A stretch of DNA of 37,376 nucleotides from a virus. Its lineage: Duplodnaviria; Caudoviricetes. This document shows, in pieces, positions 14,450 to 27,439 of this stretch. Under the pieces are notes generated by a model that saw nothing but the letters and a program-made list of their open reading frames with translations, was not told the DNA's origin and did not search any database. Position 1 is the first letter of the stretch. Every line of letters begins with the position of its first letter. The position numbers and the translations under genes were made by a program. Location: positions 1 through 37,376 of IMG/VR virus record IMGVR_UViG_3300025392_000001; one strand, given 5' to 3'.

Positions 14450-14908
14450 ATGCTAGAATTTAGAAATGAAGCGTTTGATGACGCACTAATTGAAGAATTA
14501 AAACCTTTAACTAGGCGTCATTATGAAGAAGTAGCATTAGATAAAGATCAGGTTTTATTAGATCCTGATTGGGACAAATACAAAAGGTTAGTAGCATTGG
14601 GATTTGTCATGTTTATAGGTGCTAGAGATAGTGGTAAATTAGTTGGTTATAGTTTGTTTATAATGGCAGATATGATACATTATAAAACAACCAAAGTGGC
14701 TGACAATGATGTGTTATATCTAAGTCCTGAATATAGGCAAGGTATGGCAGGTATTAAGATGATTAAGTTTTGTGAAGCAGAACTTAAACGGTTAGGAATA
14801 AAGAAAATTCTTTGGCATGTGAAAGCAGCCAAAGATTTTAGAAAGATATTATATCGTATGAATTATCATGATGAAGATATGATTCTAAGTAAAATTTTAA
14901 AGGATTAG
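14450..14908 (+). CDS. GNAT-family acetyltransferase
   Basis: LYLSPEYRQGMAGIKMIKFCEAELKRLG is the acetyl-CoA-binding motif A; sits between tail and ejection genes as in many podoviruses. Confidence 0.8.
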   Translation: MLEFRNEAFDDALIEELKPLTRRHYEEVALDKDQVLLDPDWDKYKRLVALGFVMFIGARDSGKLVGYSLFIMADMIHYKTTKVADNDVLYLSPEYRQGMAGIKMIKFCEAELKRLGIKKILWHVKAAKDFRKILYRMNYHDEDMILSKILKD

Positions 14909-20982: not shown

Positions 20983-21432
20983 ATGATTGAACAAGAATTA
21001 ATTAAGGTATTCTCAACAACCTTTGTCACATACTATAAAAGTCATGCGGCACATTGGAATACCACTGGACGCAATTTCTACTCAGATCACAAATTGTTAA
21101 ACAAGATCTATGAAGATATTTTTGATAGTGTTGATGACATTGCTGAAATTGCCCGCACACTAAAGATTGAAGTTCCCTGTGTATTAAGTGATATCATTGC
21201 TGATAGCCTTGTAGCAGATGCACCAATTGTTGACGATGGTGATGGCGATGAATTCTTACAGGCTGTCTATGATGATATTGAAACATTGATCACTGCATTT
21301 CACGATCTAGAAGAAATCACAAACACAACTGAATACAGCCATATTAATAACTTTGCACAAGATCGTGTTCGTAGTCTACAGAAATTCTGCTGGATGCTAC
21401 GAAGCACATTAGATAACCGTAGTATTTTCTAA
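20983..21432 (+). CDS. dps: Dps / ferritin-like DNA protection protein
   Basis: HWNTTGRNFYSDH...YEDIFDSVDDIAE gives the ferroxidase pattern (H, H+12, D-x-x-x-E); C-terminal KFCWML. Confidence 0.85.
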   Translation: MIEQELIKVFSTTFVTYYKSHAAHWNTTGRNFYSDHKLLNKIYEDIFDSVDDIAEIARTLKIEVPCVLSDIIADSLVADAPIVDDGDGDEFLQAVYDDIETLITAFHDLEEITNTTEYSHINNFAQDRVRSLQKFCWMLRSTLDNRSIF

Positions 21433-21676: not shown

Positions 21677-22084
21677 TCAATCTACATAGCCATAACGATC
21701 TGGCTTACGACTTACATAGGTTTTCAAAGTCTGTAATTTAATTCCAGTCTTTTTAGACGCATCATGTATGTCTAGATATACTTTATCCCCAATGCGATAT
21801 TGACGAGCTGGTCTTCCAGGTTTTATCCGTGGTTTTGGCTCTGGTTTGACTATTTTTTCGTCTGGATTCATGCTAAGAATGCGTGGATCTTGGAACTTTT
21901 GTATCCTATCTTCAATATACAAGATAGTGTTTACTAGTTCATCTAATACGGGCCAAACTTCCTCAAAGCATTCATGTAATGGCTTATTGAGATTGTATGT
22001 CTTGGACAATGTCTTTAAATGTCGTTGACATTCGTCGTAGTTAAATTGTTCAACCTGTTCTTTGCTTAAAAATAATTCTGTCAT
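21677..22084 (-). CDS. Hypothetical protein with C-terminal HTH/NUMOD1-like DNA-binding motif
   Basis: GDKVYLDIHDASKKTGIKLQTLKTYV. Confidence 0.6.
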   Translation of the reverse strand: MTELFLSKEQVEQFNYDECQRHLKTLSKTYNLNKPLHECFEEVWPVLDELVNTILYIEDRIQKFQDPRILSMNPDEKIVKPEPKPRIKPGRPARQYRIGDKVYLDIHDASKKTGIKLQTLKTYVSRKPDRYGYVD

Positions 22085-22593
22085 TTTAGTGTATCCACGA
22101 TAATATGTAGTCTATTGGTTGTGCCTGCGTTTGTTACAGAATGTGTGATGTGATTATTGAACCACCAAATTTCTCCACGCTTCATATGTAGTGTTTCATC
22201 TCCTGATGTCATTTGAACTTCTGGATTAGTTGCAACAACCAAATGATAGCGATCAGTGTTATTACTATAATATCCTTCATCAACATGTGGTTGAATTGAT
22301 TCGCTGGGTTTAAGTTTGGCAATGACAATACGACCCAATGGGCGATTAAACACAGCCTGCACAAGGGCCATAGTGAATGGAAAGTATTCCTGAACAAAAT
22401 AATCAACGCAGGTTATGTCTGTGAAAAAGTCCTGTGCTACATGTGGTGCCTGAACACTTTGATAACGCAGTACAATGTCATCTCCATGCCCAGCATGTTG
22501 CCTGAGGCTAAGCCAATTCCAAAGTGGAGTTGCGGCTATTTCTGTCAGCAAAGGCTGATAATCAAAGTCTGCTACTTTACGAAAGTTATTCAT
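22081..22593 (-). CDS. Aspartyl/asparaginyl beta-hydroxylase-family 2OG-Fe(II) oxygenase
   Basis: GRIVIAKLKP...IQPHVD (HxD), RYHLVV, GEIWWFNNHITHSVTN (distal H), RLHIIVD. Confidence 0.85.
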   Translation of the reverse strand: MNNFRKVADFDYQPLLTEIAATPLWNWLSLRQHAGHGDDIVLRYQSVQAPHVAQDFFTDITCVDYFVQEYFPFTMALVQAVFNRPLGRIVIAKLKPSESIQPHVDEGYYSNNTDRYHLVVATNPEVQMTSGDETLHMKRGEIWWFNNHITHSVTNAGTTNRLHIIVDTLK

Positions 22594-22784
22594 TTTAATT
22601 CCTCAAATGTTTGGGTGCGTTGGACAATGCGGCATTCACATTCCTTCATGTAATCAATAGTTTTGAAATGCGTGATGCGGGCATGAGCATCTTGTAGTGT
22701 GTTTAGATAGTCCCAGGTTCGTTGCCAAACTTTGGGCGTTTCTGGGTGGCAGTATTCAATGTAGTAATCAATTTTAGGTTTCAT
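22590..22784 (-). CDS. Small hypothetical protein, probably leaderless
   Basis: 64 aa, ATGA overlap with the next gene, ATG 6 nt downstream of a -10 box. Confidence 0.65.
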   Translation of the reverse strand: MKPKIDYYIEYCHPETPKVWQRTWDYLNTLQDAHARITHFKTIDYMKECECRIVQRTQTFEELK

Positions 22785-22790
22785 CTTTTT

Positions 22791-22819
22791 AATTTACAGG
22801 GTATTTAGCATTTTGTCAA
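22791..22819 (-). promoter_or_regulatory. Leftward sigma70-type promoter with embedded TAAATA
   Basis: Minus strand TTGACA-N17-TAAATT; the spacer contains cTAAATAc (22802-22807). Confidence 0.7.
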
Positions 22820-22856
22820 TTAGGTCATTTGCCAAAACGATTGGCTAGATAACCAT

Positions 22857-22889
22857 TTGACAATAGGTACAGATGCTTTATAATAAATA
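22857..22889 (+). promoter_or_regulatory. Consensus sigma70 promoter for the sRNA, overlapping TAAATA
   Basis: TTGACA (22857-62)-N16-TATAAT (22879-84); TAAATA at 22884-89. Confidence 0.75.
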
Positions 22890-23082
22890 ACATGTAGGAC
22901 GAGAATTCCTGTTTTGTTTCTCCAAACTTCTTAGGGTTTACTTTTAACTCGTCCTACACTGATTATTGCGTGTCAATTCTTTAATTGTTGATATTGATCT
23001 TTCTCCACGGCAGGCTGAAATCAAATAACCAATGATCAGTGTGGAAACCCGCTAGGTGCAATGCCTAAGCGGGTTTTCTTTT
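22890..23082 (+). ncRNA. Putative antisense/regulatory small RNA (~190 nt)
   Basis: Own promoter; stem 22893-903/22948-58 (11 bp perfect), stem 22956-68/23030-42 (13 bp, one GU), terminal terminator; loops complementary to phage RBS/leader sequences; no ORF in the track. Confidence 0.7.
23044..23082 (+). terminator. Rho-independent terminator ending the sRNA
   Basis: gaaacccgct-agg...cct-a-agcgggttttctttt. Confidence 0.8.
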
Positions 23083-23096
23083 GACTAAAATTCCTG

Positions 23097-23135
23097 TTGA
23101 CATAATTTTTGGTTTCCTGTAAATTTGTATAAATA
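23097..23135 (+). promoter_or_regulatory. Rightward early promoter plus TATAAATA
   Basis: TTGACA (23097)-N17-TAAATT (23120), the same CCTGTAAATT as the leftward promoter; TATAAATA at 23128-35. Confidence 0.7.
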
Positions 23136-23236
23136 GAAGTACAGCCTTGCCGCTACCTGGAGAGAGATCTATAAGCAAAGATCTAAAATTGCTTGGTTAA
23201 GTTCGCACCTAGCGACAACAATTAAAGGAAATTAAA

Positions 23237-23935
23237 ATGAGTATTTTTGAAGAAGTTAAAGCCCGCATACAGAGCGGAAATAATATTAAACACTTAACAC
23301 TAAACACTAAACATTTAACATTAGATACTAATACACTAGATTTGCCCTCTGGCGAGGGCGAAACAAGTGACCTATTGAGGCTAAAGCCTCCGTCTGGCCT
23401 CGCACCAGAGGTGCTCTCTCCTCAGGTAGGGGTCAGTAGTTCTGGAGAGGTAATTCCCGCTTTGGTAAACGCAGACTTTCAATATATCGCAGTTAGTCTT
23501 AAAACACAAACCAAAGAAGAACGCATTGAAGTTAATGTAGATTTCAAACTACAGAACAGCACAACTTTTAATAAGTTAGTGTTCAACTTAGTAGGATGGA
23601 ATCGTCGCAGAGAGTTTTTTGATAACATTCAAGAAGTTGCTGATTGGCATGGTTATCAATCAGCATACAAACAACAGACCAAACCAGATTACATTGGTAA
23701 AGGACGCCCTAGATCCAAACAGAAAAAAGGAGCAATTCAGCGTACTCCTATTAGAGAAGAAACAGCAATGATGGTTTCTACAGAAGAACAATTGATGTGC
23801 CACTTATGGATTGAAGACGCACATTTTGTTTTACCATTTGATCCTTGGAGTGATGCTCGTAAAATATTTTGTGCCAAAGCAGAATATGTTAACAATCCAG
23901 GTAGCAAGCGTATCAAGCGTGGAGGTTGGTTATGA
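23237..23935 (+). CDS. Hypothetical protein, candidate replication-associated gene containing a putative origin
   Basis: First gene of the early operon, RBS AAAGGAA; 5' part carries 7-bp repeats and clustered hairpins. Function is inferred only. Confidence 0.6.
   Translation: MSIFEEVKARIQSGNNIKHLTLNTKHLTLDTNTLDLPSGEGETSDLLRLKPPSGLAPEVLSPQVGVSSSGEVIPALVNADFQYIAVSLKTQTKEERIEVNVDFKLQNSTTFNKLVFNLVGWNRRREFFDNIQEVADWHGYQSAYKQQTKPDYIGKGRPRSKQKKGAIQRTPIREETAMMVSTEEQLMCHLWIEDAHFVLPFDPWSDARKIFCAKAEYVNNPGSKRIKRGGWL
23287..23328 (+). repeat. Six degenerate tandem 7-bp repeats (consensus TAAACAC), iteron-like
   Basis: taaacac ttaacac taaacac taaacat ttaacat tagatac. Confidence 0.8.
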
Positions 23936-24489: not shown

Positions 24490-24662
24490 TGACACCAGAA
24501 CAACGAGCAAAGATACAAGCACTTCGTAATGGTACTGAATATGTTCCGCCTAAGGAACATATTCGCCAGATGCCTAAAGCAATTCAACAAATAAAACAAC
24601 AAATAAACTTTAAAAAATTATTTGAAACAAAAGCAAACAGGCATCAGAAAGGTATAAATTGA
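24489..24662 (+). CDS. Small hypothetical protein (57 aa, not in ORF track)
   Basis: TAATG coupling, AAGGA upstream; MTPEQRAKIQALRNG...INFKKLFETKANRHQKGIN. Confidence 0.65.
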   Translation: MTPEQRAKIQALRNGTEYVPPKEHIRQMPKAIQQIKQQINFKKLFETKANRHQKGIN

Positions 24663-24690
24663 TTGACAAAAAATATAAATAAAATATAAT
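24663..24690 (+). promoter_or_regulatory. Sigma70 promoter with embedded TATAAATA
   Basis: TTGACA (24663)-N16-TATAAT (24685); TATAAATA at 24674-81. Confidence 0.75.
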
Positions 24691-24708
24691 AAATTGAAAG
24701 GCAATGTA

Positions 24709-25532: not shown

Positions 25533-26040
25533 TAGTTGGGCTTGGAACTATGCCCAATGGAGTGATGTTGAAGATATGTATCAACTTGCCAAAGTGCATT
25601 TTGAAAGAGAGATGGATACTATTTTTACAATCAATGATAACGCATATCGTTATGCATTAGATATTAGCACCAGTCATCAACGACATAATCTAGCCCTGGA
25701 ACAACTATTGGTCTGCAGAGACAAGGCCACTAATAAATTATTGGCCTATAGTTGGTTGGGCAGAGGCCACCGCACTCCATATAGCAATGATGAAATGGCA
25801 GAAGCCAGAATGTTGCACACTGATCTTGAATTAAGTAGTCGTCACCGCATACACATCTGTGTTCAAGCAATTAACTATTGGGAAACATGGGCCAAAGCCT
25901 GCGGCATACCTATATTGGTATCTACTTCAATCCGCGAAGAACAAGACACATTTTTACGATTACACGAGCGTTTAGGATTCATTGTTCGTGGCGGAATATG
26001 TTATAAAAGAATCATACCAAAGGAAAACAAAAATGATTAA
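25477..26040 (+). CDS. GNAT-fold protein (putative acetyltransferase)
   Basis: C-terminal WAKACGIPILVSTS...FLRLHERLGF resembles GNAT motif B; start may be 25462 or 25477. Confidence 0.5.
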   Translation: MTTTLQKSLFQKYQCSPNDSWAWNYAQWSDVEDMYQLAKVHFEREMDTIFTINDNAYRYALDISTSHQRHNLALEQLLVCRDKATNKLLAYSWLGRGHRTPYSNDEMAEARMLHTDLELSSRHRIHICVQAINYWETWAKACGIPILVSTSIREEQDTFLRLHERLGFIVRGGICYKRIIPKENKND

Positions 26041-26299
26041 GGCAGTGGGAACAAAATTAGTAATTGAGCGTGTGGAACGCGAACAACAAACAGCAGGTGG
26101 TATCTTTATCACCAACCAAGCAGATCCAAACCCCTTGGCTGTGGTTCTAAGCAAGGGTGATGATGTCACTATCAAAGTCAATGAAGGTGACAAGATCGCA
26201 GTATTGTGGGGCAACACAGCCACACAGCCCTACAACGGCAAGAACTATTATATAGTGGATCAAACAGGCGTCACAGCCGTGGAGAAAGAAAATGACTAA
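26033..26299 (+). CDS. groES: GroES-like co-chaperonin
   Basis: IKAVGTKLVIE...QQTAGGIFI (mobile loop)...AVVLSKG...VNEGDKI; RBS AAGGAA. Confidence 0.8.
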   Translation: MIKAVGTKLVIERVEREQQTAGGIFITNQADPNPLAVVLSKGDDVTIKVNEGDKIAVLWGNTATQPYNGKNYYIVDQTGVTAVEKEND

Positions 26300-27122
26300 T
26301 ATATTGCCAATCCATAGCAAAGATGGACACACCTATTGGGTTGAAGAAGGTGATACTCTTTATATCCAGCGTTTACAAGCAGGACAATATCAAAGAACAA
26401 ACTGGAAGTTTGCTCAAACACTTGTTGATGTTTGGACACGAGCCTTAGATGTTGGAACCAATAATGCTTGTAATGCTATTCATTATGCCAAACGATTTGG
26501 ATATGTAGAATGTTTTGAACCTACGCCATTAGCACAACAATTATGGACTAACACCGTTAGAGACAACGGAACACAAAATGTTATTTTACACAAAGTTGGA
26601 TGTGGTGAAAAACAATACGCAACGGAAATTATAACTCATTGGAAAAATGGCGGACACAATCATTTAACTCATTATGACAAAAATCCACGCACTCATCAAG
26701 AGCGTAGCACACGCCTTAAAGTTCCAGTTCAGGTTGAAACTATAGATTCTTATAATTTTCAGGATGTTGGTTTTATTAAAATTGATGTTGAAGGTTATGA
26801 AAAGTTTGTACTAGAAGGTGCCCAACAAACTATTGCTCGTTGTCGCCCAACCATTCAATTAGAAATTGTGGCTAATCAATGTCGCAAATTTAATTATAAA
26901 GCAGAAGATATGATTGAATGGATTCGTTCATTGGATTATACTATTGTAAGTAAAAATCGCGGAAATTTATATGGTAAGTTTAGTAGTAATGCTCGTCAGG
27001 TGCTTTATGAAAATCAACATTATAAGCGTGAAATGGACCTATGGTTTCAACCTAATGAACGAGTGCGTCCAGAAATGACAAAAGTAGATACATTTAAAAT
27101 ATTATTTGAGGAAATAAAATGA
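26292..27122 (+). CDS. FkbM-family SAM-dependent methyltransferase
   Basis: ALDVGTN, VECFEP, FIKIDVEGYEKFVLEGA...RPTIQLE. Confidence 0.9.
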   Translation: MTNILPIHSKDGHTYWVEEGDTLYIQRLQAGQYQRTNWKFAQTLVDVWTRALDVGTNNACNAIHYAKRFGYVECFEPTPLAQQLWTNTVRDNGTQNVILHKVGCGEKQYATEIITHWKNGGHNHLTHYDKNPRTHQERSTRLKVPVQVETIDSYNFQDVGFIKIDVEGYEKFVLEGAQQTIARCRPTIQLEIVANQCRKFNYKAEDMIEWIRSLDYTIVSKNRGNLYGKFSSNARQVLYENQHYKREMDLWFQPNERVRPEMTKVDTFKILFEEIK

Positions 27123-27439
27123 CTGAAAAAATTATCGCAAATGCCCCAACAGAAGATGAAGTGCTCACAGCCAGCCTTAAACTAATTGTGGATCGCTTTG
27201 TTGAAATGGGCTATGAAGAAAAGATCATATTTGGCAAAGTAAACTTAATCCTAAACAAATTTATTACCAATGAAGGCACATTCACAGCGGAGTATATCAA
27301 ACTGGCAGAAAACGCAATTAAGATGCGAGCATCAAAAGAGTTTGAACAAGCCATTATGAATCCAGAAGGCCCTGCCAATGATGGTAGTGGTATTAGCCTT
27401 ATTGTGCCAGGAGGCGGCATAGGCGGAGGTAGACTATGA
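27119..27439 (+). CDS. Hypothetical protein
   Basis: 106 aa, ATGA overlaps at both ends, GAGG RBS. Confidence 0.7.
   Translation: MTEKIIANAPTEDEVLTASLKLIVDRFVEMGYEEKIIFGKVNLILNKFITNEGTFTAEYIKLAENAIKMRASKEFEQAIMNPEGPANDGSGISLIVPGGGIGGGRL

What the first reader, a model, noticed from the sequence alone, without database searches (positions are those of the whole stretch)
26276..26294. The same sRNA loop has a perfect 14-nt match to the FkbM methyltransferase RBS 3.3 kb away
Seen: 22998-23011 tctttctccacggc is the exact reverse complement of 26276-26289 gccgtggagaaaga, which covers the GGAG Shine-Dalgarno 2 nt before ATG 26292. An exact 14-mer landing on an RBS is unlikely by chance in 37 kb. 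Inference: the sRNA acts in trans on several targets and silences the methyltransferase together with the first early gene.
Basis: partly seen in the sequence, partly recalled or inferred. Interest (0 to 1): 0.75.

Follow-up and report, generated by a model that had tools for sequence, protein, structure and literature searches.

The report
Phage small RNA; methyltransferase match incidental
A freshwater phage carries a predicted small RNA that likely silences the gene right next to it, while its perfect 14-letter match to a distant methyltransferase gene is real but most likely a by-product of an older sequence that related phages keep without that gene.

Summary
The 14-nt match is real, and uncommon: shuffled sRNAs reached 14 nt against the 46 start regions in 95 of 20,000 trials. 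But it is not an fkbM feature. It lies in the last codons of groES (A-V-E-K-E), which double as a GGAG Shine-Dalgarno. Relatives keep nearly the same site with no fkbM behind it. The window's sRNA fits their sites about as well as its own (-28 to -32 vs -29 kcal/mol), their own sRNAs show no cognate fit (p=0.65), and a phage with both the sRNA and fkbM shows no pairing. What is conserved is a three-hairpin sRNA, seen in 10 phage records, whose second loop covaries with the leader directly downstream (p=0.006-0.012). In the window it pairs in three blocks, the last covering the first gene's SD. Verdict: likely a C4-like trans-acting repressor of the first early gene, with no Rfam family. The fkbM match is probably incidental cross-pairing (about 20-25% that it is a selected target); a weak hairpin-1 signal at the post-groES start keeps that open.

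The parts
22857..22884 (+). Promoter-like site P1 (TTGACA-16-TATAAT, 12 of 12) in front of the sRNA
   Evidence: consensus match only
22890..23083 (+). Predicted ~194-nt small RNA of three consecutive helices (H1, H2, terminator); ends inferred
   Evidence: MFE -63 kcal/mol, z -5.8; longest stop-free stretch starting with ATG is about 15 codons; homologues in 9 other records; no Rfam family
22894..22957 (+). Hairpin 1, with CUCC (22920-22923) at the predicted apex; an anti-SD-like element
   Evidence: closing stem: 8 of 11 pairs with two-sided changes in 6 sequences; a CUCC lies in the first hairpin of 7 of 7 tested
22977..22990 (+). sRNA block C': pairs with the SD region of the first gene (12 nt exact, 14 bp with one G-U)
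   Evidence: cognate pairing ranks 1 of 24 permutations over 4 phages; shuffle p 0.014, 0.054, 0.034, 0.20
22996..23017 (+). sRNA blocks B' (22996-23007) and A' (23008-23017, family core GGCA). The reported 14-mer (22998-23011) is the B'/A' junction
   Evidence: duplex with leader -37.3 kcal/mol; core paired with TTGCCG/TTGTCG of the leader in 10 of 10 records
23043..23083 (+). Terminator-like hairpin with a conserved GCAAY loop and U-rich tail
   Evidence: 9 of 15 pairs with two-sided changes in 5 sequences; not listed by the simple terminator scan
23097..23135 (+). Promoter-like site P2 of the leader (TTGACA-17-TAAATT; TATAAATA at 23128-23135)
   Evidence: TAAATA precedes the leader seed in relatives; start site not known
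23142..23169 (+). Leader target blocks A (23142-23152) and B (23158-23169)
23216..23229 (+). Leader target block C, covering the SD (AAAGGA, 23224-23229) of the first gene
   Evidence: paired in the cofold MFE
23237..23935 (+). First gene of the rightward early operon, 232 aa, no known family; likely main target
   Evidence: no Pfam or PHROG hit; homologues in metagenomes; model matches only uncharacterised phage proteins
24663..24690 (+). Promoter-like site (12 of 12) upstream of the genes that lead to groES-fkbM
26033..26299 (+). groES-like gene; its last codons hold the matched site
   Evidence: Pfam Cpn10 E 1e-9; C-terminal AVE in 41 of 73 and AVEK in 22 of 73 phage homologues
26276..26289 (+). 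The matched site: groES codons A-V-E-K-E and the GGAG SD (26281-26284) of the next gene
   Evidence: 8-13 nt of exact complementarity to the window's sRNA kept in four relatives where no fkbM follows
26292..27122 (+). FkbM-family methyltransferase, likely inserted at the start codon of the ancestral post-groES gene
   Evidence: absent from 4 of 4 relatives at least 90% complete; AAAATGACT stands at both its start and the start of the next gene
27119..27439 (+). Conserved 106-aa gene that follows groES directly in 7 of 7 relatives examined

Best explanation
The stretch at 22890-23083 is likely a small RNA that pairs in trans with the leader of the next transcript and is predicted to block translation of the first early gene, and its exact 14-nt match to the fkbM start is likely a by-product rather than a selected target. 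Inferred mechanism: RNA made from P1 stops at its terminator. The GGCA core in helix 2 starts pairing on TTGCCG near the 5' end of the P2 transcript (block A). Pairing extends to block B and then to block C, which covers the Shine-Dalgarno of orf 23237, giving a brake on the early operon once the RNA has built up. The 14-mer is the junction of blocks B' and A', and all 14 bases are already used in the leader duplex. The fkbM site is the end of groES, where the A-V-E codons and a GGAG SD for the coupled next gene are kept for their own reasons; fkbM likely moved in behind it later. Some cross-pairing at that site is physically possible but about half as strong. Shown: sequence, conservation, covariation, gene order. 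Inferred: transcription, repression, direction of effect, order of events.
For: Leader: sRNA and leader found together in 10 records, 8 of the 9 relatives found by protein searches, not by the pairing (L046 came from the seed pattern). Cognate pairs beat non-cognate ones (p=0.012, n=10; p=0.006, n=7). Shuffle p at most 0.004 in 7 of 10. Block C covaries over the SD. Net cofold -24 to -27 kcal/mol against -11 to -12 for the fkbM site. fkbM site: groES is followed by the orf 27119 homologue, not fkbM, in 7 of 7 relatives, and fkbM is absent from 4 of 4 near-complete relatives. The window's seed segment pairs with four relatives' groES ends at -28.1 to -32.2 against -29.2 for its own, with exact runs of 10, 12, 13 and 8 nt, while those phages' own sRNAs reach only 6-7 nt on their own sites. 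No cognate signal at the site (p=0.65; 0.54). With accessibility, the post-groES start ranks 3 of 45 in the window and 27/38, 26/41, 6/48, 7/45, 11/25 and 14/17 in relatives. L007 holds both parts and shows no pairing. Synonymous null with residues and GGAG fixed: 658 of 5,000 reach 14 nt, and 26% reach the observed duplex energy.
Against: The match is nominally rare (95 of 20,000), and by plain duplex energy fkbM is the best of the 45-48 called start regions in the window (z -3.5). Over 73 natural GroES C-termini only 22 of 2,469 codon draws reach 14 nt, so the fit is not forced by the family. The post-groES start ranks above the median in relatives for the seed segment (combined z -2.2) and more so for the hairpin-1 CUCC segment (ranks 5/38, 2/41, 12/48, 4/45, 2/25, 3/17; z -2.9, the best of 34 gene groups; cognate p=0.059). 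The sRNA has U opposite a leader G (a wobble, shared with L025) where the fkbM site offers A. Leader pairing is weak in three records (L066 p=0.05, L067 0.12, L007 0.61). The covariance model from six members did not find L066, L067 or L007, and gave only E=0.33 for L070, so these four are assigned by motifs and layout. Start codons in relatives were called by my own script and are crude.
Confidence: 0.62

Rival explanations
1. The start site behind groES is an ancestral second target of the sRNA family, read mainly by the CUCC element of hairpin 1. fkbM inserted at that start codon and inherited the control, and in this lineage the second loop fits as well.
For: Hairpin-1 segment ranks the post-groES start 1/45 in the window and 2-12 in six relatives (z -2.9). 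The flank-shuffle p is at most 0.1 in 4 of 6 relatives against 6 of 35 other GGAG/GAGG starts. In the window, L068 and L023 the predicted duplex reaches from the SD to the start codon. GGAG or GAGG is kept at this site in 7 of 7 records tested.
Against: The probe was chosen after I saw the pairings. Any CUCC probe favours GGAG starts (median rank 4-16 with shuffled flanks). The difference from other GGAG/GAGG starts is not significant (p=0.11), cognate p=0.059 and 0.25 with the whole loop. The energies are weak (-10.6 to -16.2), the signal fades with accessibility, and four of the six relatives share nearly the same site, so they are not independent.
Confidence: 0.17
2. One reading: the sRNA's second loop was tuned in this lineage to silence fkbM together with the first early gene.
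For: Perfect 14 bp over the SD, p about 0.005; best plain duplex among the window's starts; net binding about -11 to -15 kcal/mol.
Against: The site predates fkbM. All 14 sRNA bases also pair with the leader. L025 carries nearly the same loop with a matching leader. L007 has the sRNA and fkbM without pairing. With accessibility two other starts score slightly better.
Confidence: 0.08
3. The complementarity works in cis or on transcription: read-through from P1 folds the sRNA part back onto the leader (IsrK-like isoform switch), or pairing triggers premature termination as with P4 CI RNA, or it activates rather than represses. The fkbM match is then incidental as well.
For: sRNA and leader are on one strand about 60 nt apart; a 10-nt match links the terminator arm (23050-23059) to the leader (23205-23214). 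In L068 the paired site lies far upstream of the SD. Precedents in PMC4825925 (passages).
Against: A separate promoter-like site precedes the leader. In L070 an ORF of about 58 codons lies between the sRNA and its leader and the pairing is kept (-27.6, p=0.002), which fits action in trans. Block C covers the SD itself.
Confidence: 0.13

Closest known systems
C4 antisense RNA of phages P1/P7 (Rfam RF01695)
   Same: Phage-encoded, trans-acting, multi-hairpin RNA that pairs through separate segments with a phage mRNA, one giving specificity and one covering the ribosome-binding site (PMC5320573 and PMC8546580, passages seen). That c4 lies upstream of its targets on the same strand is recalled, not from a call.
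   Different: No Rfam hit; about 190 nt rather than about 77; appears to have its own promoter and terminator rather than being cut out by RNase P; the pairing blocks lie side by side in one helix; the target is an unknown early gene, not icd-ant; no repressor or integrase was recognised in the window.
CI RNA of satellite phage P4
   Same: Small RNA that pairs with complementary sequences on the same strand to restrain the phage's replication genes (PMC4825925, passage seen). In L068 the leader heads GIY-YIG, primase and helicase-like genes.
   Different: CI is processed from the leader transcript, pairs both upstream and downstream, and causes termination; here the predicted effect is SD occlusion. 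No Rfam hit.
IsrK of Gifsy-1 prophage
   Same: Short terminated RNA acting in trans on a transcript from its own locus (PMC4825925, abstract and passages seen).
   Different: IsrK acts on its own read-through isoform and activates translation; here the target seems to have a separate promoter and the predicted effect is repression.
Multi-target phage sRNAs (VpdS of VP882, PreS of lambda, DicF)
   Different: Those targets were shown by experiment; here the second target lacks conservation support.

Membership tests
C4 antisense RNA (RF01695) | Match to the covariance model | tested here: not met
   No hit at E up to 5 for window 22600-23400 beyond three chance-level matches to other families; none at gathering score in the window and 8 loci
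C4 antisense RNA (RF01695) | Two-part pairing with a phage mRNA, one part covering the RBS | tested here: met
   Blocks A/B plus block C over the SD, with covariation; prediction only
C4 antisense RNA (RF01695) | Processing by RNase P to about 77 nt | not testable with these tools
   No RNA run listed
C4 antisense RNA (RF01695) | Target is the icd-ant antirepressor operon | tested here: not met
   Downstream genes have no antirepressor match in Pfam or PHROGs
P4 CI RNA | Pairing causes premature transcription termination | not testable with these tools
   Needs transcript mapping
Multi-target trans-acting sRNA with fkbM as a target | Complementarity to the start region beyond chance | tested here: met
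   95 of 20,000 shuffles; rank 1 by duplex energy; rank 3 of 45 with accessibility
Multi-target trans-acting sRNA with fkbM as a target | Pairing with fkbM homologues conserved where both parts occur | tested here: not met
   L007: -8.8 and -7.8 kcal/mol; one record only
Multi-target trans-acting sRNA with fkbM as a target | Covariation of sRNA and site across relatives (site taken as the post-groES start) | tested here: inconclusive
   Seed segment p=0.65 and 0.54; hairpin-1 segment p=0.059; whole RNA p=0.36
Multi-target trans-acting sRNA with fkbM as a target | Repression of an fkbM fusion with compensatory rescue | not testable with these tools
   Experiment

The most novel reading that the evidence does not exclude
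A family of freshwater-phage sRNAs uses two recognition elements, a GGCA seed for the early-operon leader and a CUCC anti-SD element for the start site coupled to groES. That start site acts as a regulated slot: a methyltransferase gene that inserted at its start codon came under the sRNA's control at once, and in this phage both elements fit it.
Probability: 0.22. Interest if true: 0.62.

Novelty: new variant of a known kind. Interest (0 to 1): 0.4.

Why it matters
The fkbM match alone is a cautionary case: a perfect 14-mer on a ribosome-binding site can arise where an anti-SD-rich sRNA meets conserved codons. The underlying unit is more useful: an sRNA-leader cassette without an Rfam family, kept in front of four unrelated kinds of first gene in small SU10-like freshwater phages, with natural compensatory pairs that make a ready reporter test. 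If it works as predicted, it shows C4-like RNA control of the early operon in phages in which no protein repressor was recognised. If the second-target reading holds, it would show a newly acquired gene being put under regulation simply by where it landed.

Tried and rejected
Exact 16-nt pattern scan of viral contigs: 5 of 7 hits were unrelated chance matches, 2 were identical copies. Seed-pair pattern scan: 2 of 37 hits were family members (L045, the same record as L023, and L046). Genome-contig scan: 2 hits over 28 residues only, not followed. GenBank phages: no match for orf 23237 or for the sRNA region; the nearest capsid relative MW202484 had no hit to model R1. L027 (30% identical first gene) and L086 were left out of the sRNA set because no seed pair was recognised; L086's groES end was used only. 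No RNA holder listed, which says nothing on expression. Contigs of 8 DNA runs showed no variant at either 14-mer where they covered it, so no within-population covariation test was possible. MAFFT did not put helices 1 and 2 in register over the full set, so model R1 holds only the terminator pairs, and helix 2 has no alignment-based covariation count; its arms are listed per sequence. Two database proteins (P0002, P0104) share a longest-contig length, which might mean a close relative with a different groES end, but no accession was given, so this was not used. Function of orf 23237: no Pfam, PHROG, PDB sequence, Atlas or PDB fold match. A small ORF inside the sRNA was rejected. A CsrA-sponge reading from the opposite strand was considered and dropped because the promoter and terminator signals and the conserved pairing are on the + strand. 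Novelty searches: Rfam; seven paper searches listed nothing on this element. In PMC10690425 I saw passages and searched 4 of 9 supplementary files for five sample numbers and one motif, without a hit; its alignments and figures (mmc1-5) could not be read, so this RNA may be among its roughly 10,000 candidates.

Full report
Setting. The window is a complete 37,376-bp phage record with direct terminal repeats, with SU10-type capsid, portal and adaptor genes and a terminase. All 20 listed runs that hold the region are freshwater metagenomes. The host is not known.

Observation. The 14-mer pair is exact and occurs only at these two places. It covers GGAG 26281-26284, 7 nt before ATG 26292 of a Pfam FkbM methyltransferase. 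The same bases are the last codons of a groES-like gene (A-V-E-K-E), whose stop overlaps the fkbM start. A 14-nt inverted pair somewhere in this window is expected (3 seen, 4.2 in 60 shuffles). A match of 14 nt or more between the shuffled sRNA and any of 46 start regions arose in 95 of 20,000 trials. So the match is uncommon for one genome but not extraordinary for something spotted after the fact.

The sRNA. Between a 12-of-12 promoter consensus (22857-22884) and a GC-rich hairpin with a U-rich tail lies a unit of about 194 nt that folds into three helices (z -5.8) and has no useful ORF. It has no Rfam family. Protein searches for neighbouring genes brought in relatives with the same layout: L023, L025 and L026 by the first gene, L066-L068 by GroES, L070 by the gene before groES, and L007 by FkbM. 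L046 came from a pattern that demands the seed pair. Folding z-scores run from -2.1 to -6.3 in all 10. Helix 1 has two-sided changes in 8 of 11 pairs over 6 sequences, and the terminator in 9 of 15 pairs over 5. A GGCA core and a GCAAY loop are shared. A model built from six members found only those six at significant scores, so L066, L067, L070 and L007 are assigned by motifs and layout. Transcription is inferred; no RNA run was listed.

The conserved target is the adjacent leader. In 10 of 10 records the core faces TTGCCG (TTGTCG in L007) near the start of the next predicted transcript. The flanking segment changes in step with the leader: cognate pairs beat non-cognate ones with p=0.012 (n=10) and p=0.006 (n=7), and shuffle p is at most 0.004 in 7 of 10, but 0.05, 0.12 and 0.61 in L066, L067 and L007. 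In the four phages sharing the first gene a third block pairs with the SD region, cognate best in 1 of 24 permutations, with single-phage p of 0.014, 0.054, 0.034 and 0.20. In the window the cofold pairs all three blocks and covers AAAGGA, net -27 kcal/mol. In L070 another ORF lies between sRNA and leader and the pairing holds, which favours action in trans. The genes behind the leader differ: orf 23237-like, a protein of about 320-330 aa (L046, L066; 49% identical), a 130-139 aa protein (L067, L007) and GIY-YIG proteins (L068, L070). In L068 primase- and helicase-like genes follow. I infer a brake on the early operon.

The fkbM site. The 14-mer is the junction of blocks B' and A'; all its bases pair with the leader as well. 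On the target side, groES is followed by the orf 27119 homologue in 7 of 7 relatives, and four records at least 90% complete have no fkbM (the call itself held no positive control, but the same protein found 13 loci). AAAATGACT stands at both the fkbM start and the orf 27119 start, which fits an insertion at the old start codon. GroES homologues end in AVE in 41 of 73 and AVEK in 22 of 73 cases, and GGAG or GAGG is kept at the site. The window's seed segment therefore pairs with the groES ends of L066, L067, L068 and L070 at -28.1, -32.2, -30.6 and -31.9 kcal/mol against -29.2 for its own, with exact runs of 10, 12, 13 and 8 nt, while their own sRNAs reach 6-7 nt. There is no cognate signal (p=0.65). 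Start regions of 7 fkbM homologues do not pair with the window's segment (-4.8 to -11.6), and L007's sRNA does not pair with its own fkbM (-8.8 and -7.8). With residues and GGAG fixed, 658 of 5,000 synonymous draws reach 14 nt; over 73 natural C-termini, 22 of 2,469 do. With accessibility the fkbM start scores -11.8, rank 3 of 45, half the leader's -24.0; relatives rank 27/38, 26/41, 6/48, 7/45, 11/25 and 14/17.

What speaks for a second target. By plain duplex energy fkbM is the window's best start region. Hairpin 1 carries a CUCC in 7 of 7 tested, and this segment ranks the post-groES start 1/45 in the window and 5/38, 2/41, 12/48, 4/45, 2/25 and 3/17 in relatives (combined z -2.9 without the window; cognate p=0.059). 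I chose this probe after seeing the pairings, CUCC favours any GGAG start, the excess over other GGAG/GAGG starts is not significant (4 of 6 against 6 of 35 at p up to 0.1; p=0.11), and four relatives share nearly the same site. Start codons in relatives were called by my script; two post-groES starts were added by hand. I put a selected role of this site at about 25% (17% ancestral, 8% tuned in this lineage). A reporter might still show some repression under overexpression, since 14 perfect pairs give a net -11 to -15 kcal/mol.

Comparison. It works like the C4 RNA of P1/P7 (two-part pairing, one part over the RBS; PMC5320573 and PMC8546580, passages) and resembles P4 CI RNA and IsrK (PMC4825925, abstract and passages), but fails the Rfam and target-gene tests for membership. 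Multi-target phage sRNAs are known (PMC12197685, passages). PMC2864571 (passages) lists c4 among its motifs. I found no description of this family in Rfam, in seven paper searches or in the 4 of 9 supplementary files of PMC10690425 that could be searched; the unread files may hold it.

Verdict. Observation confirmed; interpretation partly supported. The sRNA and its leader target are a credible new variant of C4-like control. The fkbM match is most likely incidental. Interest 0.40.

Noticed in passing
window 22894-22957; L023 6187-6260; L068 4667-4738 (-): The hairpin-1 loop keeps TTTTGTTTCTCC...TTACTTTTAAC in three records whose second loops differ; it reads like the complement of an SD-spacer-AUG and may have host or other phage targets.
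   Followed up: partly
window 23057-23061 and 9 relatives: A GCAAY loop is conserved in all 10; in L066, L067 and L007 it sits on a short hairpin of its own before the terminator, so it may be a protein-binding element.
   Followed up: no
L046 6246-7211; L066 2995-3993: First gene behind the leader is a 320-330 aa protein with no Pfam, PHROG or PDB sequence match; three motifs recall family A polymerases (recalled, untested).
   Followed up: partly
L068 3820-4740 (-); L070 5556-6702 (-): The cassette is inverted relative to groES and heads a GIY-YIG gene; in L070 a short extra ORF with its own promoter-like site lies between the sRNA and the leader.
   Followed up: partly
L023 6391-6407 and 6465-6481: A perfect 17-nt inverted repeat links the P2 spacer with the leader; L046 has a 12-nt one at a similar place (6101, 6173). 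It could be an operator or a hairpin.
   Followed up: no
window 23050-23059 and 23205-23214: A 10-nt exact match between the terminator's 5' arm and the leader hairpin just before block C; possible antitermination or a fourth pairing block.
   Followed up: no
window 24656-24693: Other contigs in runs X7, X9 and X10 share this 38-nt promoter-like stretch with different flanks: possibly a promoter motif common to co-occurring phages.
   Followed up: no
window 20983-21432, 22081-22593, 14450-14908: Accessory genes: ferritin/Dps-like, aspartyl/asparaginyl hydroxylase-like and a GNAT acetyltransferase; several HNH and GIY-YIG-type endonucleases.
   Followed up: no
L009-L012: Two fkbM-like genes in tandem.
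   Followed up: no
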